Shown here piece by piece: positions 13,018 through 49,244 of a stretch of 64,000 nucleotides of DNA. How positions within the stretch are numbered: the stretch's first letter is position 1; each line of letters begins with the position of its first letter. The position numbers were made by a program, and so were the translations under genes. Origin of the DNA: Minisyncoccia bacterium. GTDB taxonomy: Bacteria > Patescibacteriota > Minisyncoccia > Phycocordibacterales > CAJBRS01. The notes beneath the pieces were generated by a model. The model worked only from the letters and a program-made list of their open reading frames with translations, had not been told where the DNA came from and did not search any database. The stretch is taken from the NCBI GenBank assembly GCA_038215155.1, contig JBBQRF010000003.1, forward strand, positions 65,904-129,903, written 5' to 3'.

Positions 13018-13479
13018 ATGAAAAAACAATTAAAAAGAGGTTTTACATTAATAGAAATATTAGTTGTGATTGGCATTATTGCTATTTTGGCCGCGGTAGT
13101 CCTAATCGCGATTAACCCTGCGCGCCAATTTAAATTGGCGCGCGACTCCCAGCGTCAGAGCAACGTTACCGCCATTTTAAACGCCGTTGGCCAGGATTTA
13201 GCAGAAAATAGGGGAGTCTTTAGTTGCGGCAGCGCTTCTACTAGTTTGCCGACTGCAGAGGCCGTGATGAAAAGTAGTGGTGGTTTTGACCTTGCTCCTT
13301 GCCTAGTAACCACTTATTTATCTTCCTTGCCATTTGATCCCAGCGCTCCAGGAGCCCATTACAATAGTAATTCGGATTATGATACTGGCTACTCGATCTT
13401 CACTGATAATGATGGCCGAGTGACGGTCAAAGCTCCGTTTACTGAGTTAGCTAATCCGAAAATTTCCGTTACTCGATAA
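13018..13479 (+). CDS. type IV pilin / prepilin-type N-terminal cleavage-methylation domain protein
   Basis: MKKQLKRGFTLIEILVVIGIIAILAAVVLIAI class III signal peptide. Confidence 0.7.
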   Translation: MKKQLKRGFTLIEILVVIGIIAILAAVVLIAINPARQFKLARDSQRQSNVTAILNAVGQDLAENRGVFSCGSASTSLPTAEAVMKSSGGFDLAPCLVTTYLSSLPFDPSAPGAHYNSNSDYDTGYSIFTDNDGRVTVKAPFTELANPKISVTR

Positions 13480-30987: not shown

Positions 30988-31212
30988 ATGAGAAATTTTA
31001 TTCGAAATCTTCGCGCTAAGCCCGAAAGTGACAGACGGCGATTTTTATTACTGAGCAGCGTGGGAATTACTTTAATTATTGTACTAATTTGGCTTGTCAG
31101 TTTTACTAATTCCTATTTATTTAATAATGGAGCCGCGAAGACCACAGAAGTTAATCCGGTCTCTATTTTGAAGAGCAATTTGGGAGCGGTTTATGAGAGT
31201 TTTGGAAAATAA
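30988..31212 (+). CDS. hypothetical small membrane protein
   Basis: 74 aa, single TM; uncertain. Confidence 0.3.
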   Translation: MRNFIRNLRAKPESDRRRFLLLSSVGITLIIVLIWLVSFTNSYLFNNGAAKTTEVNPVSILKSNLGAVYESFGK

Positions 31213-31217
31213 ATTTA

Positions 31218-31330
31218 TTAAATGAAAGATCGCTCCAATAAACCTGCCACTGTCGGGAGCGCTCCGGGCCGCTAGGCCAAGTCTTACTCCCGACAGTGGC
31301 AGGTTTCTCTCCGCTAATTCTTTCATTTTT
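31218..31330. repeat. REP-like long palindromic intergenic element, copy C
   Basis: perfect 20-bp stem aaacctgccactgtcgggag / ctcccgacagtggcaggttt around the same loop cgctccgggccgctaggccaagtcttac; outer arms aaatgaaaga / tctttcattt. Confidence 0.7.
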
Positions 31331-31370
31331 ACTAGAATGAGGTTCATTTTTGTGCTAAAATATAAATAAT

Positions 31371-33848: not shown

Positions 33849-34376
33849 TTGATGTTTACTAATCCGCAAAAAAATATAGAGTTCGCATACATTGGCGAGG
33901 GAATGAAGGTGGCCGATTTTGGAGCGGCTGTCGGTCACCACGCCATAATGGCGGCGCGACAAGTTGGGGTGGCTGGAGTGGTTTATGCTATTGATGTTCA
34001 GTCGGAATTACTGGCGAAGCTCGCGCGCGAAGCGCGTGGCGAGAAGCTAGAAAATGTCCATATTATTTTAGGAAATATAGAAAAGCCGGGTGGTAGCACT
34101 TTAAAAGAGGGCTCTGTAGATCGAGTACTTTTAATAAACACCCTTTTTCAGCTGGAGAATAAAGCGGCCGCCCTGGAAGAAGCTAAGCGTACTCTGAATA
34201 AGGGCGGCCGCCTCGCCATCATAGATTGGCAGGAATCTTTCGGACAAATTGGGCCGCATGCCGACCATATCGTCAAAGAAAAAGAAGCAATTAAATTGGC
34301 AGAAAGCGCCGGCTTCAAATTGCAAAGCCAATTCGAAGCCGGCCTTCACCATTACGGCCTGCTATTCAGACTCTAA
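33849..34376 (+). CDS. class I SAM-dependent methyltransferase
   Basis: VADFGAAVGHHA SAM-binding motif I and LNKGGRLAIID motif. Confidence 0.55.
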   Translation: MMFTNPQKNIEFAYIGEGMKVADFGAAVGHHAIMAARQVGVAGVVYAIDVQSELLAKLAREARGEKLENVHIILGNIEKPGGSTLKEGSVDRVLLINTLFQLENKAAALEEAKRTLNKGGRLAIIDWQESFGQIGPHADHIVKEKEAIKLAESAGFKLQSQFEAGLHHYGLLFRL

Positions 34377-34402: not shown

Positions 34403-35710
34403 ATGACAACCTTTCAAGTAGTTCTGCTTTCCTTCTTCGGCTTCATTGTAATTGCGGCCGTTCTCCTTTTTGCTTCCGGTGGTTTAGGAACTAGCACTGT
34501 TTCTACTCCTGATCTAACTATGTGGGGGACCTTGCCCTCACAACAAATCAATGATCTTCTGGCCGCTATTGATAATAATCAACGCGGAGTGATTAAAGTT
34601 ACCTATTTTCAGAAAGACCCTGAAACCTTTCATACGGAGTTTACTGGAGCGGTAGCGGAAGGCCGCGGCCCGGACATTATAATGCTTCCTCAAAATGAAA
34701 TATTATTGGAGAGGAATAAATTACTACCTATTCCTCTAGCTACTTTTACCACGCGCGAAATGCAAGATACTTTTGTGGAAGAAGGAGAAATCTTCTACAC
34801 TTCCCGCGGTTTCCTAGGTGTTCCTTTTTCAATTGATCCATTAGTAATGTATTGGAACCGCACACTTTTTCAGAATGCAGGTCTCTCTAAGCCTCCTGTC
34901 TATTGGGATGAATTCTCCACCGTTATTCCTATTCTTACCAAAAAAGATCAGGCCTCTAATGTTACTCAAAGTACAGTAGCGCTCGGAGAAGTAACGAACA
35001 TTGCTCATGCTAAAGAAATTCTTTCCACTTTAATTTTTCAAGCAGGCAATCCTATCACCGCCATTAGCTCACCCACAGATCCTCGTCCAGACAAAGTCTC
35101 GGCCGTTTTAGATCAAAAATTTTCATCGGCCATAGCTCCTACTGAAGCTGCCCTGGATTTCTTTACCCAGTTTGCCGATCCCAACAATCCAGCTTTTTCT
35201 TGGACTCGCGCCTTGCCGTATTCTGCTAATGCTTTCACTAATGGCACCTTAGCTATTTATTTCGGCTTTGCCAGCGACTACGCCATACTCAGAGAGAAAA
35301 ATCCTAACTTAAATTTTGATGTTGCTCCAGTACCACAGCCACGTAGCTCTAGTAATAAAATTACTTTCGGCAATATTACCGCATTAGCAATAGCAAAAGG
35401 CACAAAATATAGTGATGATGCCTACAGCGCTATTCGAGTATTGACCTCTAATTCTTCTATCGGCTTATTAACTGTCGCCACTAACCTACCTCCAGTTCGG
35501 CGAGATCTCCTGGCTACCACTACTCCAACGAGCGCTGCCATGGTTGTCTTTAATAATGCAGCCCTGCAGAGTAAGAGTTGGTTTGATCCAGACCCAGTTA
35601 AAAGTGCTGATATTTTCAAGCGTATGGTTGACGCCATTCAGTCCGGTAGTCGCACTACTAGCGACGCAGTTAGTTCTGCTAACGTTGAGTTACAAAACCT
35701 TATTCCATAA
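34403..35710 (+). CDS. extracellular solute-binding protein (ABC transporter substrate-binding-like), N-terminally membrane anchored
   Basis: signal anchor then periplasmic-binding-protein-like sequence; weak. Confidence 0.45.
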   Translation: MTTFQVVLLSFFGFIVIAAVLLFASGGLGTSTVSTPDLTMWGTLPSQQINDLLAAIDNNQRGVIKVTYFQKDPETFHTEFTGAVAEGRGPDIIMLPQNEILLERNKLLPIPLATFTTREMQDTFVEEGEIFYTSRGFLGVPFSIDPLVMYWNRTLFQNAGLSKPPVYWDEFSTVIPILTKKDQASNVTQSTVALGEVTNIAHAKEILSTLIFQAGNPITAISSPTDPRPDKVSAVLDQKFSSAIAPTEAALDFFTQFADPNNPAFSWTRALPYSANAFTNGTLAIYFGFASDYAILREKNPNLNFDVAPVPQPRSSSNKITFGNITALAIAKGTKYSDDAYSAIRVLTSNSSIGLLTVATNLPPVRRDLLATTTPTSAAMVVFNNAALQSKSWFDPDPVKSADIFKRMVDAIQSGSRTTSDAVSSANVELQNLIP

Positions 35711-35712
35711 TC

Positions 35713-36111
35713 ATGCGAAAATATCTTCCAATTTTTCTAATAATTTTTCTCACCTCAATCACTTTATTAGTTGTCTTTCCAATAATGGTTCAGGGTGCTG
35801 GGGGAATTGTCCCAGATTGCCAAAATGCAGATGGGGGTTGTACTTGGGGAGATTTCATATTGTTAATTAACAAGTTTATTGACTTCTTGTTTTATATCGC
35901 CGGAGCCCTGGCCGCTATTTCTTTTGCATATGCCGGCTTCCTTTACCTGACTTCCATGGGAAGTCCAGAGCAAATAAAAAAAGCCAAAAGTATTTTTGGC
36001 AAAGTAGTGTTAGGATTAATAATAGCCCTCGCCGCCTGGTTAATCGTTAAAGTGATTTTATCAGCTGTCGGTTTGAAACAAGGGCAAGGATATTCGTTGC
36101 TTGGCTTCTAA
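35713..36111 (+). CDS. TrbC/VirB2-like pilin family small membrane protein, paralog 1
   Basis: signal peptide, then two hydrophobic helices split by the charged loop SMGSPEQIKKAKS. Confidence 0.5.
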   Translation: MRKYLPIFLIIFLTSITLLVVFPIMVQGAGGIVPDCQNADGGCTWGDFILLINKFIDFLFYIAGALAAISFAYAGFLYLTSMGSPEQIKKAKSIFGKVVLGLIIALAAWLIVKVILSAVGLKQGQGYSLLGF

Positions 36112-36526
36112 TATGAGATTTATTTATATAACAATTATTCTCAGCATTGTCTTTGTCGGAATTTTTGCTGCGCCAGTGGCTTTGGGAGCACCCGGAGGAC
36201 TTGGTAATTTGGACTCCTTCTCCACTCCAGGAGGATCAGGTAATAATGGGGATCCTAACTCTATTCAAAACCCTCTCCGCAGCAGCGGCACCATATATGA
36301 ATTTATTGCTCAGGTATTAAAAGAAGTAGCCAAGATTGGAGCAGTCATCTGTGTCTTCTTCATTATTTATTCTGGGTTTTTATTTGTTACAGCCAGAGGA
36401 AATCCAGAAAAGTTAACTACGGCAAAAAGCGCCCTAGCTTATACTTTAATTGGCGCCGCTATACTTCTAGGCGCAGGTCTCTTGGCTACTATTATTGAAA
36501 ATACTATTAAAAACTTACGAACATGA
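36101..36526 (+). CDS. TrbC/VirB2-like pilin family protein, paralog 2
   Basis: same architecture, loop ARGNPEKLTTAKS; overlaps neighbours as in a tight operon. Confidence 0.5.
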   Translation: MASNMRFIYITIILSIVFVGIFAAPVALGAPGGLGNLDSFSTPGGSGNNGDPNSIQNPLRSSGTIYEFIAQVLKEVAKIGAVICVFFIIYSGFLFVTARGNPEKLTTAKSALAYTLIGAAILLGAGLLATIIENTIKNLRT

Positions 36527-36831
36527 ATTTCTTACCAATTAATTTTGCTTATGCCCAAAGTGGCAAGGCCACAGATTTTAAAAGCCTAGTGCAGCTTTTA
36601 ATTAGTCTTTTAAACATCTTAATCCCACTAATTATCGGGGTGGCTTTAGTAGTTTTTCTTTATGGCATTGTTCGCTACGTTTTAGGTTCGGGCGACGATA
36701 AAAGTTCGGCTAAAAGCATCATGCTTTGGGGCATCATCGCTCTCTTCGTCATGGTTTCGGTTTGGGGATTGGTGGGCATTCTTCAGAGCACCTTTTTTGG
36801 TGGCACTTTAGGCATTCCGCAGCTAAAGTAA
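36523..36831 (+). CDS. TrbC/VirB2-like pilin family protein, paralog 3
   Basis: LYGIVRYVLGSGDDKSSAKSIMLWGIIALFVMVSVWGLV. Confidence 0.5.
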   Translation: MNFLPINFAYAQSGKATDFKSLVQLLISLLNILIPLIIGVALVVFLYGIVRYVLGSGDDKSSAKSIMLWGIIALFVMVSVWGLVGILQSTFFGGTLGIPQLK

Positions 36832-36930
36832 CCTATCCCCAGCACTCCTTTATAGAGAAGGAAATCTATAGTACAATTATAGAAATAAGATCCGGTCAAC
36901 TTTAAATTTATTAATAAATTAACCATTTAA

Positions 36931-37290
36931 ATGAAAAAGTATATTATTGCCGCTTTAACCGTCGTTCTGCCAGGAGTTGCTTTTGGTCAGCAATTAACTA
37001 ACATCAGTGTCTTAATTAGCTCGGCTACGCACATTCTCAACCAGTTAGTGCCATTCTTTATTGGTCTAGGGTTAGTAGTTTTCCTTTTCGGTATCGTTCG
37101 ATATGTACTTGCTGGTTCAGGAGAGGACAAAGCTTCGGCTCGTAGTATCATGATCTACGGCATCATCGCTCTCTTCGTCATGGTTTCGGTGTGGGGATTG
37201 GTGAATTTTCTCGGTAATGCTCTGGGCTTAAATAATACTCAAAATATTCCTGCTCCAAATATTCCAACCAATAATTCTGGAGGTTACTAA
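36931..37290 (+). CDS. TrbC/VirB2-like pilin family protein, paralog 4
   Basis: LFGIVRYVLAGSGEDKASARSIMIYGIIALFVMVSVWGLV; shares a 45-nt near-identical tract with paralog 3. Confidence 0.5.
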   Translation: MKKYIIAALTVVLPGVAFGQQLTNISVLISSATHILNQLVPFFIGLGLVVFLFGIVRYVLAGSGEDKASARSIMIYGIIALFVMVSVWGLVNFLGNALGLNNTQNIPAPNIPTNNSGGY

Positions 37291-37309
37291 AACTTTCCGG
37301 CCAAGCTAA

Positions 37310-37699
37310 ATGAAGAAGACTCTTCTAATTCTCGCCATACTTTTCGTGCCGGGAGTGGCTTTTGGCCAGAGAGCGCCTACTCTTGGATCTCTGCTAAAAT
37401 CGGGGCTCAACATTCTCAATCTTCTCATTCCGTTTATTATTGGCATTGGTCTGGTAATTTTCCTTTACGGCGTAGTGCGGTATGTCCTGGCGGGAGGCAG
37501 TGAAGATAAAGCAGCAGCAAGACAAATAATGCTCTACGGTATCATCGCGCTATTTGTAATGGTGTCGGTGTGGGGATTGGTGAATTTAATTCGGGACGGA
37601 CTAGGCATTAGTAATAATCCTAATATTGTCGCCCCCACAGCACCCAACAGTGATTTCCCGACAAGTGATGGGGGAGAGTCGGGTATAAGATTTAGATAA
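37310..37699 (+). CDS. TrbC/VirB2-like pilin family protein, paralog 5
   Basis: LYGVVRYVLAGGSEDKAAARQIMLYGIIALFVMVSVWGLV. Confidence 0.5.
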   Translation: MKKTLLILAILFVPGVAFGQRAPTLGSLLKSGLNILNLLIPFIIGIGLVIFLYGVVRYVLAGGSEDKAAARQIMLYGIIALFVMVSVWGLVNLIRDGLGISNNPNIVAPTAPNSDFPTSDGGESGIRFR

Positions 37700-37704
37700 A
37701 AATT

Positions 37705-37980
37705 ATGGATTCAATTGATAAATTACTACAAAGTATTGATGAGGTGATTATAAATCCTCTCATTTACCTGCTTTTTGCTGTCGCGTTAATAGTTTTTTTG
37801 TGGGGAGTGGTAGAATTCGTTATTAATTCAGAGAGTGCCGAAGGAAGAACCAAAGGGAGAGACCATATTCTCTGGGGTTTGGTAGGCATGTTTATAATGG
37901 TTTCCGCTTTTGGCATAATTACTATTATCGTGCGGACATTCGGAATTGATCATAGCGCAGTGGACTCCATACGTCGTTAA
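37705..37980 (+). CDS. TrbC/VirB2-like pilin family protein, paralog 6 (no signal peptide)
   Basis: two-helix core LWGVVEFVINSESAEGRTKGRDHILWGLVGMFIMVSAFGI. Confidence 0.45.
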   Translation: MDSIDKLLQSIDEVIINPLIYLLFAVALIVFLWGVVEFVINSESAEGRTKGRDHILWGLVGMFIMVSAFGIITIIVRTFGIDHSAVDSIRR

Positions 37981-38011
37981 TTTTAAAATAAAAAAATAGG
38001 GAAATAAAATA

Positions 38012-38046
38012 GGCCGGGCAAAGTGATGAAATCACTTTGCCCGGCC
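38012..38046. terminator. bidirectional terminator, 16-bp perfect hairpin (ggccgggcaaagtgat gaa atcactttgcccggcc)
   Basis: perfect inverted repeat with T-rich flanks on both strands between convergent operons. Confidence 0.75.
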
Positions 38047-38048
38047 GT

Positions 38049-38519
38049 TTACTTTCGGAAGACTAGAATGGTCATGGGAGCACTAGCGTTCCCAAACTCC
38101 AGATAGTAACAGCCGTTTCCAATATCAGGCTGTTGCCCTTCTGTCCACAGTCGCTCTGTGCCACTACCATTTACTCGATAGGAACAAGAGCGATGTTCAT
38201 TTCCGACGGATTCCCATCGGAAACCCTTACCCCCAATACTTTTCGGTCCGCCCATTTCTGTGCGAACCCAACCGTGAGTAGGAACCTCTAAGGTAGAAAT
38301 CAAAGCACCGGGTCTTTGAAATTCCAAGGACGACACATCTTCCTTTCTAGAAACTTCTCGGCTGGTTGCGCAGCTTTTGATGGCTGTTGACACCCAGCTT
38401 ATGACTACGATTGCCACCAAGATCTTGAAAATAAGCATTCCGCCTCTGCGCTTTGGCCTAGCCACAGTCACATCAACAGGAGCTCTATAATTCCAATGGG
38501 CCGCCGTTCGTTGTGTCAC
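38049..38519 (-). CDS. hypothetical membrane-anchored protein, possible NfeD-like partner of the SPFH protein
   Basis: single TM then about 100 aa Cys-containing domain; 4-nt overlap with the upstream SPFH gene; elevated GC. Confidence 0.35.
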   Translation of the reverse strand: MTQRTAAHWNYRAPVDVTVARPKRRGGMLIFKILVAIVVISWVSTAIKSCATSREVSRKEDVSSLEFQRPGALISTLEVPTHGWVRTEMGGPKSIGGKGFRWESVGNEHRSCSYRVNGSGTERLWTEGQQPDIGNGCYYLEFGNASAPMTILVFRK

Positions 38520-39493
38520 TTATCTCCTTTCTTCTCGGCTCTCGCGGGTTTACCAGGACCTGATATCTTATTAGCTAGGTTCGTACCCAAACCTCCTACT
38601 CCTATTGACGTCAAATTTTCCAACCCTTTAACATCTCCACTCAGGCGGAGGATATTAACTCGGGCAACCTCAGTCTCGGCCATAAAAAATTCCGTGGCTA
38701 GACTTGGTTCCAAAATACCCTTTACCGACTTAATGAATTCTTTCAGGCGTTGCCCAACAAGGCGTTGATTACGAATTCGCTGTGATTGTTCGTCATATTG
38801 AATATTGGAAATTCTAACAGAGATCACAATGATGCCGTATTTTTTTTGAAACTCCTTGTACTCTTTTTTATTCTGAAAATCTCGCTTAATTGCCGGATTC
38901 ATCGCATGTTGATGGAGATCCTTAGTTTCTTTTTCTTGAAACTTCGAAGAGATCCACGACCCCACAGTCTCGCCAAGTAGATTCGGAACAATTCCGATAT
39001 CATTTCCGGCATAAGCCAGCAGACTCTCTTGACTGCTGGCGTCGACTTTGTAAGTCGCGATCCAGGTTACTTTTAACAAGGTTCCGTCCTTCGTGGGATA
39101 AAACTCCGCTTGCTCTTCCACCGTCTCTGGGTCACCAGAGGTGACCTTTTGGACCAACATGGTAAAACCCATTTCAGGCGTCTCCCAAGGGAATTTCGGA
39201 TGCCCTCCTTCACAGAGGACGAACTTAACCCCCTTATCTTTAGAATTCTTCCACTGGTTTAGCAGTAGTACGCCCTGAAAGGGCTTCACTACCATCCAGA
39301 TCCCCTGTATAGGGGAATTCAGCAGGACGTTGACTAAACTGTAAACTATCACCAAGGTCAACCCAATACTGATTAGGGTATCGAAACCGATTGGAAAGAA
39401 GAGGAGAAGCCCCCTCAAAACCGTCCAAATGATGAGCGTTACTCCTATAATCAGCAGGTAAATGCGCCGCATTTTCTGATTGTCTGTAAGCAT
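38516..39493 (-). CDS. SPFH/Band 7 (stomatin/prohibitin-like) domain membrane protein
   Basis: two N-terminal TMs then Band-7-like core (YPTKDGTLLKVTWIATYKV..GIIVISVRISNIQYD). Confidence 0.55.
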   Translation of the reverse strand: MLTDNQKMRRIYLLIIGVTLIIWTVLRGLLLFFPIGFDTLISIGLTLVIVYSLVNVLLNSPIQGIWMVVKPFQGVLLLNQWKNSKDKGVKFVLCEGGHPKFPWETPEMGFTMLVQKVTSGDPETVEEQAEFYPTKDGTLLKVTWIATYKVDASSQESLLAYAGNDIGIVPNLLGETVGSWISSKFQEKETKDLHQHAMNPAIKRDFQNKKEYKEFQKKYGIIVISVRISNIQYDEQSQRIRNQRLVGQRLKEFIKSVKGILEPSLATEFFMAETEVARVNILRLSGDVKGLENLTSIGVGGLGTNLANKISGPGKPARAEKKGDK

Positions 39494-39595
39494 AATTCCT
39501 TTCGCGTTGTTGAAATTTCAAAGAACCGTTATGGTTCAATTCACTGTGGACTATATCATAAAATATTGGAAAAGTCAAAGAGTAGAAGATTGTTG

Positions 39596-39679
39596 TGCTG
39601 GGGAGAGGACTTGAACCTCCATGAACTTGCGTTCGCTAGCTCCTAAGGCTAGTGCGTCTGCCAATTTCGCCACCCCAGC
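39596..39679 (-). tRNA. tRNA-Leu (anticodon TAG)
   Basis: reverse complement GCTGGGGTGGCGAAATTGGCAGACGCACTAGCCTTAGGAGCTAGC..GGTTCAAGTCCTCTCCCCAGCA, long variable arm. Confidence 0.85.
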
Positions 39680-39709
39680 GTGTATGTAGTTGATGTGTTG
39701 GACCCGCTT

Positions 39710-39759
39710 TAAAAAAATCAAAATAAATTGATTTTTTTAAAGCGGGTCCACCCAGTAGG
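39710..39759. repeat. perfect 22-bp palindrome ggacccgctttaaaaaaatcaa / ttgatttttttaaagcgggtcc in the tRNA spacer
   Basis: exact inverted repeat with 6-nt loop; right arm overlaps the 3' end of tRNA-Lys; likely terminator or processing hairpin. Confidence 0.7.
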
Positions 39760-39829
39760 AATCGAACCTACGACCAACCGCTTAAGAGGCGGATGCTCTA
39801 CCAACTGAGCTATGGGTGGGAATAATATT
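39757..39829 (-). tRNA. tRNA-Lys (anticodon CTT) with unusual C1:G72 acceptor end
   Basis: reverse complement CCACCCATAGCTCAGTTGGTAGAGCATCCGCCTCTTAAGCGGTTGGTCGTAGGTTCGATTCCTACTGGGTGGA; aligns position by position with canonical tRNA-Lys. Confidence 0.8.
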
Positions 39830-39958
39830 ATGTGGTCACGAATCACTAAGTCTGCTCATTCGCTTCTAATTATAGCGAATTGCGCGGACTAAGTGTTCGC
39901 GACCCCGCCTCGTCTGTCTCGCAAAACCTCGACATGACTGCGGCCGGCACAAGTCCGC

Positions 39959-39986
39959 GAAAAATGCAAAGCAGTTTGCATTTTTC
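39959..39986. terminator. bidirectional terminator hairpin gaaaaatgcaaa gcag tttgcatttttc
   Basis: 9-bp stem flanked by A-run and T-run, downstream of tRNA-Leu(TAA) on the minus strand. Confidence 0.7.
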
Positions 39987-39993
39987 TGGCTTG

Positions 39994-40075
39994 TGCCCGA
40001 GGTGGGAATCGAACCCACATCCCTTGCGAGACACGATTTTAAGTCGTGCGCGTATACCAGTTCCGCCACTCGGGC
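39994..40075 (-). tRNA. tRNA-Leu (anticodon TAA)
   Basis: reverse complement GCCCGAGTGGCGGAACTGGTATACGCGCACGACTTAAAATCGTG..GTGGGTTCGATTCCCACCTCGGGCA. Confidence 0.85.
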
Positions 40076-40084
40076 ATATTAGCT

Positions 40085-40120
40085 TAAAGTCCGTAAAGTC
40101 CGTAAAGTCCGTAAAGTCCG
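40085..40120. repeat. 9-bp tandem repeat (taaagtccg) x4 in the tRNA spacer
   Basis: four exact head-to-tail copies, fifth degenerate (taaagattc); followed by tttatagac x2. Confidence 0.8.
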
Positions 40121-40174
40121 TAAAGATTCTGCTTTATAGACTTTATAGACCTTATGACTTTTTCGACTATCATG

Positions 40175-40246
40175 AGGCGTAGACCGGAATCGAACCGGTG
40201 TATAAAGATTTTGCAGATCTTTGCCTTACCACTTGGCTACTACGCC
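40175..40246 (-). tRNA. tRNA-Cys (anticodon GCA), U73 discriminator
   Basis: reverse complement GGCGTAGTAGCCAAGTGGTAAGGCAAAGATCTGCAAAATCTTTATACACCGGTTCGATTCCGGTCTACGCCT. Confidence 0.85.
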
Positions 40247-48666: not shown

Positions 48667-49215
48667 TCAATCCTTAACGAGGTTGATTAATGTTATAAAA
48701 TCTTCTGTCATACGCGAAATCCTTATAATATATTTGGGAGTTTTTGTAACTGATATCTTATAAATTTTTGGTACAAAATCTAGATTTTGTACCATGATCA
48801 TCACATCATTAGCAAGATCTTTTATAATTGTTGTAAAATTTACCATTTTATATCCACGGTCATAATATATAGAACCATCTGTTTGGAACAAGCCACGTAA
48901 ACACTCAACTGAGTAATTTCTATTTTCTTTGATCCAATCTGGAACTCTAACATTCTGCATAAACTTTGACCCGTTCTTCGCTTTCCACCCCAAGATGCTT
49001 TCTAGATGATTTGAATAGCAGTAAACATCAAGAGCCTTCGCTTTTCTTCTGGCCACAGATACTTTATTGTCCGGAAGTAATTTCTGAAGCGATTCTCTAA
49101 TCGTTTTAATTAAATTAGGATACCCTAAATCACAAGTAATTCTTAATCTTGTAGCCCTATTATTTGAATTTGATAAATTGCCATCACCAATGGAGAGCCC
49201 AATAACATAGGCCAT
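48667..49215 (-). CDS. LAGLIDADG family homing endonuclease (double-motif, single chain)
   Basis: start moved to MAYVIGLSIGDGNL (motif 1) because the longer ORF runs through tRNA-Leu on the same strand; second motif LRGLFQTDGSIY. Confidence 0.7.
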   Translation of the reverse strand: MAYVIGLSIGDGNLSNSNNRATRLRITCDLGYPNLIKTIRESLQKLLPDNKVSVARRKAKALDVYCYSNHLESILGWKAKNGSKFMQNVRVPDWIKENRNYSVECLRGLFQTDGSIYYDRGYKMVNFTTIIKDLANDVMIMVQNLDFVPKIYKISVTKTPKYIIRISRMTEDFITLINLVKD

Positions 49216-49244
49216 TAATTTTAAATCAGTACTTAACCTCTTAG

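What the first reader, a model, noticed from the sequence alone, without database searches (positions are those of the whole stretch)
35713..39493. Tandem operon of six TrbC/VirB2-like pilin paralogs with a gene-conversion tract, followed by a GC-shifted SPFH/NfeD-like pair
Six consecutive small genes (35713-37980, two with start/stop overlaps) all encode signal peptide + two hydrophobic helices split by a short charged loop (..G..EDKA.A.SI..). This is the topology of conjugative / type IV secretion pilins (TrbC/VirB2). Paralogs 3, 4 and 5 share an identical 16-aa helix (YGIIALFVMVSVWGLV). Paralogs 3 and 4 also share a 45-nt tract identical at 44 positions (36730-36774 vs 37159-37203) despite divergent flanks, which indicates recent gene conversion, while N- and C-terminal exposed segments are hypervariable. 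No VirB4/VirD4 ATPase lies in the window. Directly downstream, after a perfect 16-bp terminator, is a convergent two-gene unit (SPFH/Band-7 protein plus a small Cys-containing membrane protein, 4-nt overlap) with visibly higher GC (about 48%) than the flanks. It abuts a cluster of four tRNA genes with repeats, a typical landing site for acquired DNA. In CPR bacteria such pilin arrays are associated with T4SS-like machinery used for host attachment or DNA uptake, and a diversifying array is a candidate variable surface organelle.
Basis: partly seen in the sequence, partly recalled or inferred. Interest (0 to 1): 0.65.

Follow-up and report, generated by a model that had tools for sequence, protein, structure and literature searches.

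The report
Conserved six-gene VirB2-like pilin array
Six neighbouring small genes of this ultra-small (Patescibacteria/Paceibacteria) bacterium encode relatives of the pilus subunit of type IV secretion systems; such arrays are already known, and this one proves to be an old operon conserved gene-for-gene across many species, not a rapidly diversifying surface-variation locus.

Summary
Six tandem genes (35713-37980, +) all score above Pfam's cut-off for PF18895 T4SS_pilin. The 44/45-nt tract, the 16-bp hairpin, the convergent Band_7 pair and the four tRNAs are all present. Corrections: P3 and P6 lack a signal peptide, P3 shares 15 not 16 residues, and GC is 46.2% rather than 48%.

VirB2-like pilin arrays in Patescibacteria are published (Wang 2023; Quinonero-Coronel 2025). 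This array is not a diversifying one. In 80 loci from other species the same 4-7-gene array recurs with positional orthologs (55/73 colinear; 0.9 expected). It is always fused to a sugar-type solute-binding-protein gene next to gyrA, and no VirB4 lies within 10 kb. Short-tract gene conversion among the middle paralogs is real and recurrent (23 loci).

A conserved ~90-nt spacer with a promoter and a DnaA-box-like motif precedes the P4-like gene. The Band_7 pair occupies a conserved slot but evolves very fast. Its partner is an ORFan and NfeD identity is unsupported, so the acquired-island reading is weak.

Verdict: new member of a known kind, with undescribed architecture. Moderate interest.

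The parts
33849..34376 (+). Class I SAM methyltransferase gene. It starts immediately after the gyrA stop and is a conserved upstream neighbour of the module.
   Evidence: Pfam Methyltransf_31/11/25. Present within 2 kb upstream of the array in 46 of 57 loci.
34403..35710 (+). Membrane-anchored or secreted solute-binding-protein-like gene (435 aa). It is the first gene of the conserved SBP + pilin module; its stop lies 2 nt before the P1 start.
   Evidence: Pfam SBP_bac_1 61.7 bits and SBP_bac_8 61.1 bits. The closest solved structures are sugar-binding SBPs, E 6e-7. It abuts the first pilin gene in 56 of 57 loci. No ABC permease or ATPase in the window.
35713..36111 (+). P1, a VirB2-like (PF18895) paralog of 132 aa: signal peptide, an exposed segment with two Cys, and two TM helices.
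   Evidence: PF18895 41.1 bits. The P1 class occupies the first array position in relatives. Both Cys are conserved in the class: C43 invariant, C36 in at least 90% of 49 orthologs.
36101..36526 (+). P2, a VirB2-like paralog (141 aa from TTG 36101, or 137 aa from ATG 36113): signal peptide, a Gly/Ser/Pro/Asn-rich exposed linker, and two TM helices.
   Evidence: PF18895 38.3 bits. The P2 class is at the second position. Start alternatives.
36523..36831 (+). P3, a VirB2-like paralog of 102 aa. Its signal peptide is degenerate (MNFLPINFAYAQ), leaving two TM helices. It overlaps the P2 stop by 4 nt (ATGA).
   Evidence: PF18895 34.9 bits. Two hydrophobic segments. 58% identical to its L002 ortholog.
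36730..36774 (+). Gene-conversion tract in P3, encoding GIIALFVMVSVWGLV. It is identical at 44/45 nt to 37159-37203 in P4.
   Evidence: P3-P4 differ at 1/45, P3 vs its L002 ortholog at 13/45, and the flanks at 24/54.
36832..36930 (+). Conserved long intergenic spacer holding a promoter-like element for P4-P5-P6. It has a DnaA-box-like motif TATCCCCA (36834-36841) and, 30 nt downstream, a -10-like TACAAT (36872-36877).
   Evidence: The gap before the P4-like gene has a median of 92 nt, against 3-12 nt elsewhere in the array. TATCC[AC]C occurs in 28 of 64 spacers against 1.9 expected. It lies a fixed 28-31 nt before TAnAAT in 11 of the 15 motif-bearing spacers where a downstream -10-like hexamer could be assigned. 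Promoter scan hit 36849-36877. No Rfam family and no stable fold.
36931..37290 (+). P4, a VirB2-like paralog of 119 aa: signal peptide, two TM helices and a Pro/Asn-rich C-terminal tail. It is a candidate major subunit class.
   Evidence: PF18895 38.5 bits. 68% identical to its L002 ortholog. The AF2 model is a helical hairpin, H22-60 and H64-97, pLDDT 74. The class profile hits pKM101 TraM pilin at E 0.004.
37159..37203 (+). Partner of the conversion tract, in P4.
37310..37699 (+). P5, a VirB2-like paralog of 129 aa, 57% identical to P4. This is a duplicate within the P3-P5 subfamily, and L002 has an ortholog.
   Evidence: PF18895 32.9 bits. Identities. The same helix is encoded with 6 synonymous differences from P4.
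37705..37980 (+). P6, a VirB2-like paralog of 91 aa with no signal peptide and two TM helices. Its class is always last in the array.
   Evidence: PF18895 29.4 bits. The last gene is P6-like in 71 of 80 loci. 73 of 85 class members have two hydrophobic segments.
38012..38046 (.). Perfect 16-bp stem / 3-nt loop hairpin between the convergent units. It is a bidirectional intrinsic terminator, and the U-run is better on the minus strand.
38049..38519 (-). 156-aa ORFan with one TM helix and a Cys-containing C-terminal domain. It is translationally coupled (GTGA) to the Band_7 gene, with AAGGAG 5 nt upstream of its GTG start.
   Evidence: No family in Pfam, NCBIfam, PADLOC or PHROGs. It matches only itself among 5.8 billion and 1.84 billion proteins. 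AF2 pLDDT 46.8.
38516..39493 (-). Divergent SPFH/Band_7 membrane protein of 325 aa. Public gene calls truncate it to 218 aa.
   Evidence: Band_7 33 bits vs cut-off 23.6, residues 85-251. 25% identical to the L002 positional homolog, with the alignment starting at residue 92. No other relative at E <= 0.001. The slot is conserved in relatives.
39595..40246 (-). Cluster of four tRNA genes (Leu-tag, Lys-ctt, Leu-taa, Cys-gca), with 9-nt tandem repeats at 40085-40125 and 40132-40161.

Best explanation
This is the Paceibacteria version of the patescibacterial VirB2-like pilin array. It is a conserved chromosomal operon in which a sugar-type solute-binding-protein gene is followed by six paralogous PF18895 genes.

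Shown:
- All six belong to PF18895.
- The genes are tightly packed on one strand behind gyrA, a methyltransferase gene and the SBP gene, and the unit ends at a 16-bp hairpin.
- The order P1-P2-P3-(P4/P5)-P6 is reproduced gene-for-gene in dozens of other species, each class with its own signature. P1 has a Cys pair, P2 a low-complexity linker, P3-P5 a near-invariant helix ALFVMVSVWGLV, and P6 has no signal peptide.
- A conserved ~90-nt spacer with a promoter-like element and a DnaA-box-like motif precedes the P4-like gene.
- The middle paralogs exchange short tracts by gene conversion in many species.

Inferred:
- P1, P2, P4 and P5 are inserted by Sec and cut by signal peptidase I. P3 and P6 insert as uncleaved hairpins.
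- The mature two-helix subunits form a membrane pool. A T4SS encoded elsewhere (VirB4 is usually near dnaA in this class) assembles them into one heteromeric pilus-like or channel-lining structure.
- The separately promoted P4-type subunits are the bulk component. P1, P2, P3 and P6 are specialised, non-redundant minor subunits.
- Conversion keeps the core packing helix of P3-P5 interchangeable while the exposed N- and C-terminal tails stay distinct.
- The SBP-like protein is a co-expressed extracytoplasmic partner, for example a glycan-binding adhesin or receptor for the host surface.

The array therefore serves a fixed multi-subunit architecture, not antigenic or host-range variation. The convergent Band_7 pair is a conserved neighbour whose sequence turns over rapidly. 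No functional link between it and the array has been shown.
For: - Family: PF18895 above cut-off for all six. Sub-threshold NCBIfam hits to the Mycoplasma ICE pilin-like family NF045849 for five of six. 285 homologs of P5, nearly all PF18895, some named 'pilin' by NCBI. PDB profile hit to pKM101 TraM pilin, E 0.004. AF2 helical hairpin.
- Conservation: arrays of 4-7 genes in 59 complete loci. Position vs class is near-diagonal. 55 of 73 loci are colinear against 0.9 in shuffles. One-to-one orthologs at 51-68% identity in L002. Class-specific invariant residues.
- Operon: SBP abuts P1 in 56 of 57 loci.
- Internal promoter spacer and motif.
- Conversion.
- T4SS elsewhere: VirB4 is listed as present in 4 of the 5 genomes of my locus set that appear in Table S1 of PMC12102498. 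In Paceibacteria virB4 lies near dnaA.
- Precedent: an essential array of six VirB2-like pilins in S. epibionticum.
Against: - No T4SS component lies in the 64-kb window or within 10 kb of the array in 80 relatives.
- One array-bearing 1.0-Mb Taylorbacteria MAG is listed without VirB4.
- There is no hit to canonical TrbC/VirB2 PF04956.
- P1, P2 and P6 class profiles retrieve no solved pilin.
- The Foldseek search of the model is non-discriminating.
- No filament has ever been seen for this family.
- SBP-pilin adjacency could be inherited synteny in these strongly syntenic small genomes.
- The heteromer and major/minor roles are inference only.
Confidence: 0.55

Rival explanations
1. T4SS-independent envelope machine. 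The orphan solute-binding protein and the 5-7 VirB2-like two-helix proteins form their own complex, for example a substrate-capturing conduit, receptor or uptake device. It would be a core feature of Paceibacteria unrelated to VirB4-driven secretion.
For: - SBP is fused to the array in 56 of 57 loci, usually with overlapping or abutting stop/start.
- No ABC permease or ATPase for the SBP in the window.
- No VirB4 within 10 kb in 80 species.
- A 1.0-Mb Taylorbacteria genome with the array is listed as lacking VirB4.
- The locus sits in a housekeeping context and may be co-transcribed with gyrA.
Against: - PF18895 relatives lie inside T4SS clusters in other Patescibacteria, where they are essential together with the T4SS.
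- 4 of 5 matched genomes do have VirB4.
- MAG incompleteness explains single absences.
- No precedent exists for VirB2-like proteins working with an SBP (one search found no paper).
Confidence: 0.2
2. The array is a diversifying set of interchangeable pilins that provides antigenic or host-range variation, with gene conversion shuffling variable exposed segments.
For: - Paralogs are divergent (13-58% identity), with different exposed N- and C-terminal segments.
- Gene conversion occurs.
- The literature speculates on host-range versatility.
Against: - Positional orthologs are conserved across 55 of 73 species loci.
- Each class has its own invariant residues.
- The window and L002 share all six genes one-to-one.
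- Conversion tracts homogenise the conserved TM2/loop core, not the variable tails.
- There are no silent cassettes or pseudogene copies.
Confidence: 0.1
3. The Band_7 pair (38049-39493) is a recently acquired island that landed next to the tRNA cluster.
For: - GC is 46.2% against 41.5% (z 2.15). The 156-aa gene has the highest GC of 57 genes, and the Band_7 gene has GC3 z 2.4.
- SD-like AAGGAG / GAAAGGA motifs lie upstream of this pair and not of the pilin genes.
- Neither protein has a close relative anywhere.
- It is only 25% identical to the positional homolog in L002, where GyrA is 86% identical.
Against: - A Band_7 gene with a downstream small membrane protein, often with the same 4-nt overlap, sits in the same convergent position in at least 26 of 42 relatives, in two different downstream contexts.
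- No integrase, repeats flanking the pair, or defence/phage family was found.
- The GC shift is modest. Other housekeeping genes reach 48-49%.
Confidence: 0.15
4. The six proteins are unrelated small membrane proteins (holin, bacteriocin-immunity or similar), and the pilin label is an artefact of hydrophobic composition.
For: - Scores to PF18895 are modest (29-41 bits).
- Fold search of the hairpin model is non-specific.
- There is no PF04956 hit.
Against: - All six exceed the curated cut-off, and PF18895 is the only family any of them reaches above its curated cut-off.
- No PHROG or PADLOC family hit.
- The context is a conserved housekeeping locus, not a prophage or bacteriocin locus.
- Family members lie in T4SS clusters elsewhere.
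Confidence: 0.03

Closest known systems
Patescibacterial VirB2-like pilin arrays (S. epibionticum ML1 T4SS cluster, Wang et al. 2023, PMC10633639; survey by Quinonero-Coronel et al. 2025, PMC12102498)
   Same: Same Pfam family (PF18895). Tandem array of sequence-divergent paralogs; six genes, as in S. epibionticum. Same phylum, chromosomal, with no relaxase context.
   Different: - The published arrays were counted near virB4 (Fig. S9 legend), and the essential one lies inside the T4SS cluster. This one is more than 26 kb from any T4SS gene in the window and more than 10 kb away in 80 relatives.
- It is fused to an SBP gene next to gyrA, and it shows positional orthology across species.
- Two pairs are slightly more similar (57-58%) than the published maximum of 54%.
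- The paper's main text mentions neither gyrA nor a solute-binding protein.
Canonical conjugative pilins VirB2/TrbC/TraM (e.g. pKM101 TraM, PDB 8cw4)
   Same: Small protein with a signal peptide ending A-x-A, a short exposed N-terminus and two hydrophobic helices joined by a short polar loop. There is a weak profile match of the P4 class to TraM over the signal peptide and helix 1.
   Different: No PF04956 hit. One pilin gene per system is the rule there, adjacent to virB3/virB4. Here there are six distinct classes, two without a signal peptide, and no adjacent T4SS genes. A filament has not been demonstrated.
Multi-copy virB2 paralogs of Anaplasma and Bartonella (cited in PMC12102498)
   Same: Tandem amplification of VirB2-like genes, with gene conversion among copies.
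   Different: Those are thought to serve antigenic variation and differ between strains. Here each copy is a conserved orthologous class across species.
Major/minor pilin gene sets of type IV pili and type II secretion pseudopili (own knowledge; functional analogy only)
   Same: A fixed set of paralogous subunits with distinct conserved roles is encoded in one operon. One subunit has its own promoter and is likely made in excess.
   Different: An unrelated protein family. A true T4P pilin with an N_methyl motif lies elsewhere in the window at 13018-13479.
SPFH-NfeD operons (E. coli qmcA-ybbJ, B. subtilis yuaF-floT; own knowledge)
   Same: A Band_7 membrane protein gene is translationally coupled to a small membrane protein gene.
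   Different: The partner has no NfeD (PF01957) signal and no homolog at all. Partners in relatives are mutually unrelated, with 1-5 TM segments.
NCBIfam NF045849, Mbov_0395 family pilin-like conjugal transfer protein (Mycoplasma ICE)
   Same: Best NCBIfam match for five of the six proteins (E 1.7e-6 to 2.8e-3), covering nearly the whole 80-residue model.
   Different: All scores (17-28 bits) are below the curated cut-off of 40, so these are not members.

Membership tests
Pfam PF18895 T4SS_pilin | HMM score at or above the curated gathering score (26.6 bits) | tested here: met
   P1 41.1, P2 38.3, P3 34.9, P4 38.5, P5 32.9, P6 29.4 bits.
Pfam PF18895 T4SS_pilin | Small protein with two hydrophobic helices joined by a short polar loop, usually preceded by a signal peptide | tested here: met
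   Hydrophobic-segment analysis and the AF2 hairpin model of P4. P3 and P6 lack the signal peptide.
Canonical VirB2/TrbC pilins (PF04956) | Sequence match to the TrbC/VirB2 model or to experimentally solved pilus subunits | tested here: inconclusive
   No PF04956 hit at E <= 1. The P4-class profile hits pKM101 TraM (8cw4) at E 0.004 over 49 positions. P1, P2 and P6 class profiles hit no pilin. Foldseek is non-specific.
Canonical VirB2/TrbC pilins (PF04956) | Encoded next to virB3/virB4 and other mating-pair-formation genes | tested here: not met
   No T4SS domain in the window or in the +-10-kb flanks of 80 relatives.
Canonical VirB2/TrbC pilins (PF04956) | Polymerises into an extracellular pilus | not testable with these tools
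   Needs microscopy, biochemistry or multimer modelling.
Patescibacterial VirB2-like pilin array | Two or more PF18895/VirB2-like genes in tandem in a Patescibacteria genome | tested here: met
   Six in tandem. The nearest relatives are Paceibacterota/Parcubacteria MAGs.
Patescibacterial VirB2-like pilin array | Members structurally alike but sequence-divergent (published mean 25%, maximum 54% identity) | tested here: met
   Pairwise identity is 13.8-57.6%, and 11 of 15 pairs are below 35%. P3-P4 and P4-P5 slightly exceed the published maximum.
Patescibacterial VirB2-like pilin array | Located within or near the virB4 T4SS cluster (as in S. epibionticum and in the arrays counted in Fig. S9) | tested here: not met
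   Whether the genome has a T4SS elsewhere could not be tested. 4 of 5 related genomes do.
Antigenic or host-range variation pilin locus | Copy content and variable segments turn over between close relatives; conversion moves variable segments | tested here: not met
   Colinear positional orthologs in 55 of 73 loci. Conversion tracts lie in the conserved helix/loop.
SPFH / Band_7 (PF01145) | HMM score above the gathering score; N-terminal membrane anchor | tested here: met
   33.0 bits vs 23.6, residues 85-251. Hydrophobic N-terminal ~70 residues are visible in the translation.
NfeD (PF01957) | NfeD C-terminal OB-fold domain detectable by sequence | tested here: not met
   No Pfam or NCBIfam hit at E <= 1. 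No homolog in 1.84 billion representatives apart from one weak repeat-protein hit.
NfeD (PF01957) | OB-fold beta-barrel by structure | tested here: inconclusive
   The single-sequence AF2 model has pLDDT 46.8 and shows only three short strands.
ABC-transporter solute-binding protein, family 1 (PF01547) | HMM score above cut-off | tested here: met
   61.7 bits vs 26. Sugar-binding SBPs are the nearest solved structures.
ABC-transporter solute-binding protein, family 1 (PF01547) | Encoded with cognate permease and ATPase genes | tested here: not met
   None in the window. In relatives the downstream genes are always pilin genes.

The most novel reading that the evidence does not exclude
The sugar-type solute-binding protein and the 5-7 positionally conserved VirB2-like paralogs together form a dedicated heteromeric envelope organelle. 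This would be a class-wide core feature of Paceibacteria. Its assembly would be independent of, or only loosely coupled to, the VirB4 machine. Its bulk subunit would be expressed from an internal promoter carrying a DnaA-box-like element, tying organelle production to the replication cycle. That would make it the first multi-subunit VirB2-type structure, and a candidate nutrient- or host-contact device of these host-dependent bacteria.
Probability: 0.15. Interest if true: 0.75.

Novelty: new member of a known kind. Interest (0 to 1): 0.4.

Why it matters
VirB2-like pilin arrays are among the few envelope features shown to be essential for the epibiotic life of cultivated Patescibacteria. What they build is unknown. 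The current suggestion in the literature is variation for immune evasion or host range.

The comparative picture here argues instead for division of labour within one structure, at least in Paceibacteria. The evidence is the same ordered set of paralog classes in dozens of species, a separately promoted P4-type gene, conversion that homogenises the core helix, and an obligatory solute-binding-protein partner.

This gives concrete, testable predictions:
- hetero-oligomer modelling;
- stoichiometry by proteomics;
- a transcription start site in the spacer;
- co-occurrence with VirB4 in closed genomes.

It also flags a cis-element and an SBP partner that surveys centred on virB4 neighbourhoods would miss.

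Tried and rejected
- Foldseek of the P4 AF2 model against PDB returned only generic helical hairpins and coiled coils (E > 0.25), which is uninformative.
- PDB profile searches with the P1, P2 and P6 classes found no pilin.
- PADLOC and PHROGs scans of the pilins and the Band_7 pair gave nothing for the pilins and one generic 'lipoprotein' PHROG for Band_7. The defence, phage and holin readings were dropped.
- The NfeD test failed: there are no homologs to build an alignment, and the single-sequence model is too poor for a fold search.
- I tried to obtain a bona fide VirB2 (R388 TrwL) for profile comparison, but the accession is not in the collection. tblastn of P2 against 72,556 plasmids found no match.
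- I looked for the window's own 135,944-bp contig to search for VirB4, but only a 2.5-kb Logan contig is indexed. T4SS presence in this genome therefore could not be tested.
- dN/dS of the exposed segments was not attempted. Orthologs are only 51-68% identical in protein, so synonymous sites are saturated.
- The Rfam scan and folding of the spacer found no RNA element.
- A GGTC[GA] motif in the spacers is only 1.4-fold enriched and was dropped.

Full report
**1. What is in the sequence**

The region 35713-37980 holds six same-strand ORFs of 132, 141, 102, 119, 129 and 91 aa. Every one scores above the curated cut-off of Pfam PF18895 'T4SS_pilin' (29.4-41.1 bits; cut-off 26.6), and PF18895 is the only family any of them reaches above its curated cut-off. 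Five of the six also give sub-threshold hits to the NCBIfam 'Mbov_0395 family pilin-like conjugal transfer protein' of Mycoplasma ICEs.

Pairwise identities are 14-26% for pairs involving P1 or P2. They are 29-34% for P6 against P3-P5, and 54-58% within P3-P5. All six share the loop pattern G..E....A(K/R)S between two hydrophobic helices.

Only P1, P2, P4 and P5 have an N-terminal signal-like segment. P3 keeps only the end of one (MNFLPINFAYAQ) and P6 has none.

P3, P4 and P5 share GIIALFVMVSVWGLV, which is 15 aa; P3 is preceded by W, not Y. The tract 36730-36774 matches 37159-37203 at 44/45 nt.

A perfect 16-bp/3-nt-loop hairpin lies at 38012-38046. It separates the array from a convergent pair. 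That pair is a 325-aa Band_7 protein (33 bits against a cut-off of 23.6) overlapping by GTGA a 156-aa single-TM protein. Four tRNA genes follow, with 9-nt tandem repeats between two of them.

The pair's GC is 46.2% against 41.5% for the window. This gives z = 2.15, and 1.3% of equal-sized windows are as high.

**2. Genomic context**

All other sizeable ORFs of the window are housekeeping. They include ribonucleotide reductase, MurJ, LepA, LeuRS, FtsZ/FtsA, signal peptidase I, S1, GyrA, IF2, RbfA, ClpB, TopA, ParB, DprA and SerRS. There is no VirB4, VirD4, VirB6 or ABC permease/ATPase.

Upstream on the same strand, with gaps of 0, 26 and 2 nt, lie gyrA, a class I methyltransferase gene and a 435-aa protein. 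The 435-aa protein has an N-terminal hydrophobic anchor and an SBP_bac_1 domain (61.7 bits). Its nearest solved relatives are sugar-binding proteins.

**3. Relatives**

P5 has 285 detectable homologs, almost all carrying PF18895, from Paceibacterota/Parcubacteria MAGs. The window's own strain appears in an independent run: L001 is 100% identical over 2.5 kb.

A scan of one genome per species with P4 returned 80 loci with up to 10-kb flanks. An HMM of the family finds a tandem array in essentially all of them. Among the 59 arrays that are complete, 3 have 4 genes, 22 have 5, 26 have 6 and 8 have 7.

Assigning each gene to its best window paralog gives a near-diagonal table. The first gene is P1-like, the second P2-like, the middle ones P3/P4-like and the last P6-like (71 of 80). 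The order is monotonic in 55 of 73 loci, against a mean of 0.9 and a maximum of 6 in 1000 shuffles.

The nearest relative is L002, whose GyrA is 86% identical. It has six one-to-one orthologs at 51-68% identity.

Class alignments show class-specific conserved residues:
- a Cys pair in P1;
- NP...IYSGFLFVTA.GN in P2;
- ALFVMVSVWGLV at 90% or more in 118 P4-type sequences;
- NPLI...FLWG...GMFIM in P6.

The shared helix is therefore a family invariant. Its amino-acid identity among P3-P5 is not in itself evidence of conversion.

**4. Conserved neighbourhood**

BLAST of the window's proteins against the loci gives the block (LepB)-Pth-S1-metallo-hydrolase-GyrA-MTase-SBP-array ... RbfA-IF2. Among 57 loci with at least 5.5 kb upstream, the SBP gene abuts the first pilin gene in 56. 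The methyltransferase is present in 46 and GyrA in 55.

None of the 21 unlabelled ORFs of 480 aa or more in the flanks carries a T4SS ATPase domain. Representatives of the other recurrent flank families are housekeeping.

**5. The convergent pair**

Immediately downstream on the opposite strand, many loci carry a ~330-400-aa protein followed by a small membrane protein, often with the same 4-nt overlap. Representatives hit Band_7 above cut-off: L002, L006, L009 and L029.

An iterative profile finds such a gene, always on the minus strand, within 3.3 kb in 26 of 42 loci with at least 8 kb downstream. Ten of those lack the RbfA-IF2 context.

The proteins are extraordinarily divergent:
- The window's Band_7 protein is 25% identical to that of L002 and has no other relative at E <= 0.001 in 5.8 billion proteins.
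- The small partners are mostly unrelated to each other and have 1-5 TM segments.
- The window's 156-aa partner matches nothing but itself.
- It has no NfeD signal, and its model is too poor to test the fold.

The pair therefore occupies an ancestral slot and is not a fresh island. Rapid in-place evolution and cassette replacement cannot be told apart here. The modest GC excess and the SD-like motifs unique to this pair keep replacement possible.

Public gene calls shorten the Band_7 gene to 218 aa. The Pfam match starts at residue 85 and the L002 similarity at residue 92, and both favour the 325-aa reading.

**6. Gene conversion**

In the 45-nt tract, window P3 and P4 differ at 1 site. In the same columns:
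- P3 differs from its L002 ortholog at 13 sites;
- P4 differs from its ortholog at 6 sites;
- P5 differs from P4 at 6 sites, all synonymous.

L002 P3 also has three different residues there. The P3-P4 flanks differ at 24/54.

L002 shows an independent event. Its P4 and P5 are identical over 74 nt, differ at 34/85 outside that tract (Fisher p about 1e-11), and differ at 17/74 from their window orthologs.

Across the loci, 23 have exact shared tracts of 25 nt or more between array members, nearly all among positions 3-5 (L029: 205 nt). Between-species orthologs share a median of 10 nt and a maximum of 26. Conversion is real, recurrent, and confined to the conserved helix/loop of the P3-P5 subfamily.

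**7. An internal control region**

Gaps inside the arrays are typically 3-12 nt. The gap before the P4-like (penultimate) gene has a median of 92 nt. In the window it is 36832-36930, before P4.

These spacers cannot be aligned but share two elements. The first is a motif TATCC[AC]C(A), resembling the DnaA box TTATCCACA (consensus from my own knowledge). It occurs in 28 of 64 spacers against 1.9 expected, and is mostly placed 1-20 nt after the preceding stop codon. The second is a -10-like TAnAAT, often TGnTAnAAT, lying a fixed 28-31 nt downstream in 11 of 15 cases.

The window has TATCCCCA at 36834-36841 and TACAAT at 36872-36877. The motif occurs only once more in the 64 kb. No Rfam family and no significant fold were found.

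I read this as an internal promoter for the P4-type and P6 genes, with an upstream factor-binding site. DnaA binding is a guess.

**8. Comparison with the literature**

- PF18895 was used by Quinonero-Coronel et al. (PMC12102498). They report VirB2-like pilins in 1,948 VirB4-containing assemblies, near virB4 in 1,135 of them. They also report 441 arrays of 2-11 genes, with mean identity 25% and maximum 54%, and suggest a role in adapting to different hosts.
- Their array ring in Fig. S9 is 'near virB4'. Their main text mentions neither gyrA nor a solute-binding protein.
- Wang et al. (PMC10633639) found the predicted pilin series inside the T4SS cluster of S. epibionticum to be essential. A 2025 review counts six pilins there.
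- Their Table S1 lists VirB4 as present in four of the five genomes that are also in my locus set, and absent in one Taylorbacteria MAG.

The kind is therefore known. This instance differs in being unlinked from virB4, fused to an SBP gene, and positionally orthologous across a class.

**9. Mechanism**

The best-supported reading is a fixed multi-subunit VirB2-type assembly. The subunits would be made from one operon, with a separately promoted bulk subunit. They would be processed by Sec and signal peptidase I and assembled by a T4SS encoded elsewhere. The SBP-like protein would be an extracytoplasmic partner.

- Shown: family membership, operon anatomy, conservation, conversion, and the spacer elements.
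- Inferred: polymerisation, T4SS dependence, subunit roles, and the SBP role.

The main rival is a T4SS-independent SBP-pilin machine. The variation hypothesis and the acquired-island hypothesis are disfavoured by the comparative data.

**10. Verdict**

This is a new member of a known kind. It has features not mentioned in the papers found and read here: class-wide colinearity, the SBP fusion, the internal promoter motif and recurrent core-helix conversion. Interest is moderate.

Noticed in passing
window 36832-36930 (and the equivalent spacers in L002-L081): A conserved ~90-nt spacer lies before the P4-like gene. It carries a DnaA-box-like motif TATCC[AC]C(A) in 28 of 64 spacers (1.9 expected), a fixed 28-31 nt upstream of a -10-like hexamer. 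The motif occurs only twice in the whole window.
   Followed up: partly
window 38049-39493; L002 11119-12615 and other loci: The Band_7 gene plus small membrane-protein gene keep their convergent position across species but diverge extremely fast. They are 25% identical where GyrA is 86% identical. The partners are mutually unrelated, and the window's partner is an ORFan among 1.84 billion representatives.
   Followed up: partly
window 38516-39578: Public gene calls (Logan/NCBI) shorten the Band_7 gene to 218 aa and call a 112-aa out-of-frame ORF (39240-39578). The Pfam match and the similarity to the L002 homolog start at residues 85-92, which favours the 325-aa ORF.
   Followed up: yes
window 13018-13479 (+): A type IV pilus (T4P) pilin with an N-terminal methylation motif (PF07963). 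This pilin family is different from the array. Homologs sit just upstream of the methyltransferase-SBP-array module in L005 and L007.
   Followed up: no
window 48667-49365 (-): An ORF with a LAGLIDADG_3 homing-endonuclease domain. Its 5' part overlaps tRNA-Leu(caa) at 49244-49326 on the same strand, so the real gene probably starts just downstream of the tRNA.
   Followed up: no
window 40085-40161 and 39696-39750: Perfect 9-nt tandem repeat TAAAGTCCG x4.6 and a second 9-nt repeat lie between tRNA-Leu(taa) and tRNA-Cys. A long hairpin-like element between tRNA-Leu(tag) and tRNA-Lys gives only sub-threshold Rfam hairpin matches.
   Followed up: no
window 38500-38545 and 39494-39520 vs 35690-37705: SD-like AAGGAG / GAAAGGA motifs precede the two minus-strand genes. 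None of the SBP or pilin genes has a recognisable SD in the 25 nt upstream.
   Followed up: no
window 35713-36111 (P1) and alignment A3: Both Cys in the exposed N-terminal segment of P1 are conserved in the class (C43 invariant, C36 in at least 90% of 49 orthologs). This suggests an extracytoplasmic disulfide loop specific to this class.
   Followed up: no
window 49403-53947: ParB, topoisomerase I and DprA lie 12-16 kb downstream of the array. The window may be origin-proximal, which is where virB4 is reported to lie in Paceibacteria. No dnaA is in the window.
   Followed up: no
loci L006, L011, L012, L014, L019 and others: Many loci from TPA co-assemblies are titled 'uncultured Candidatus Saccharibacteria bacterium'. 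They nevertheless share the Paceibacteria synteny and about 70% GyrA identity with the window, so the titles are probably generic labels.
   Followed up: no
L002 3998-4285 and 44 other loci; window about 31000-31370: A conserved ~110-aa ORF with no Pfam family lies directly upstream of gyrA in 45 loci.
   Followed up: no
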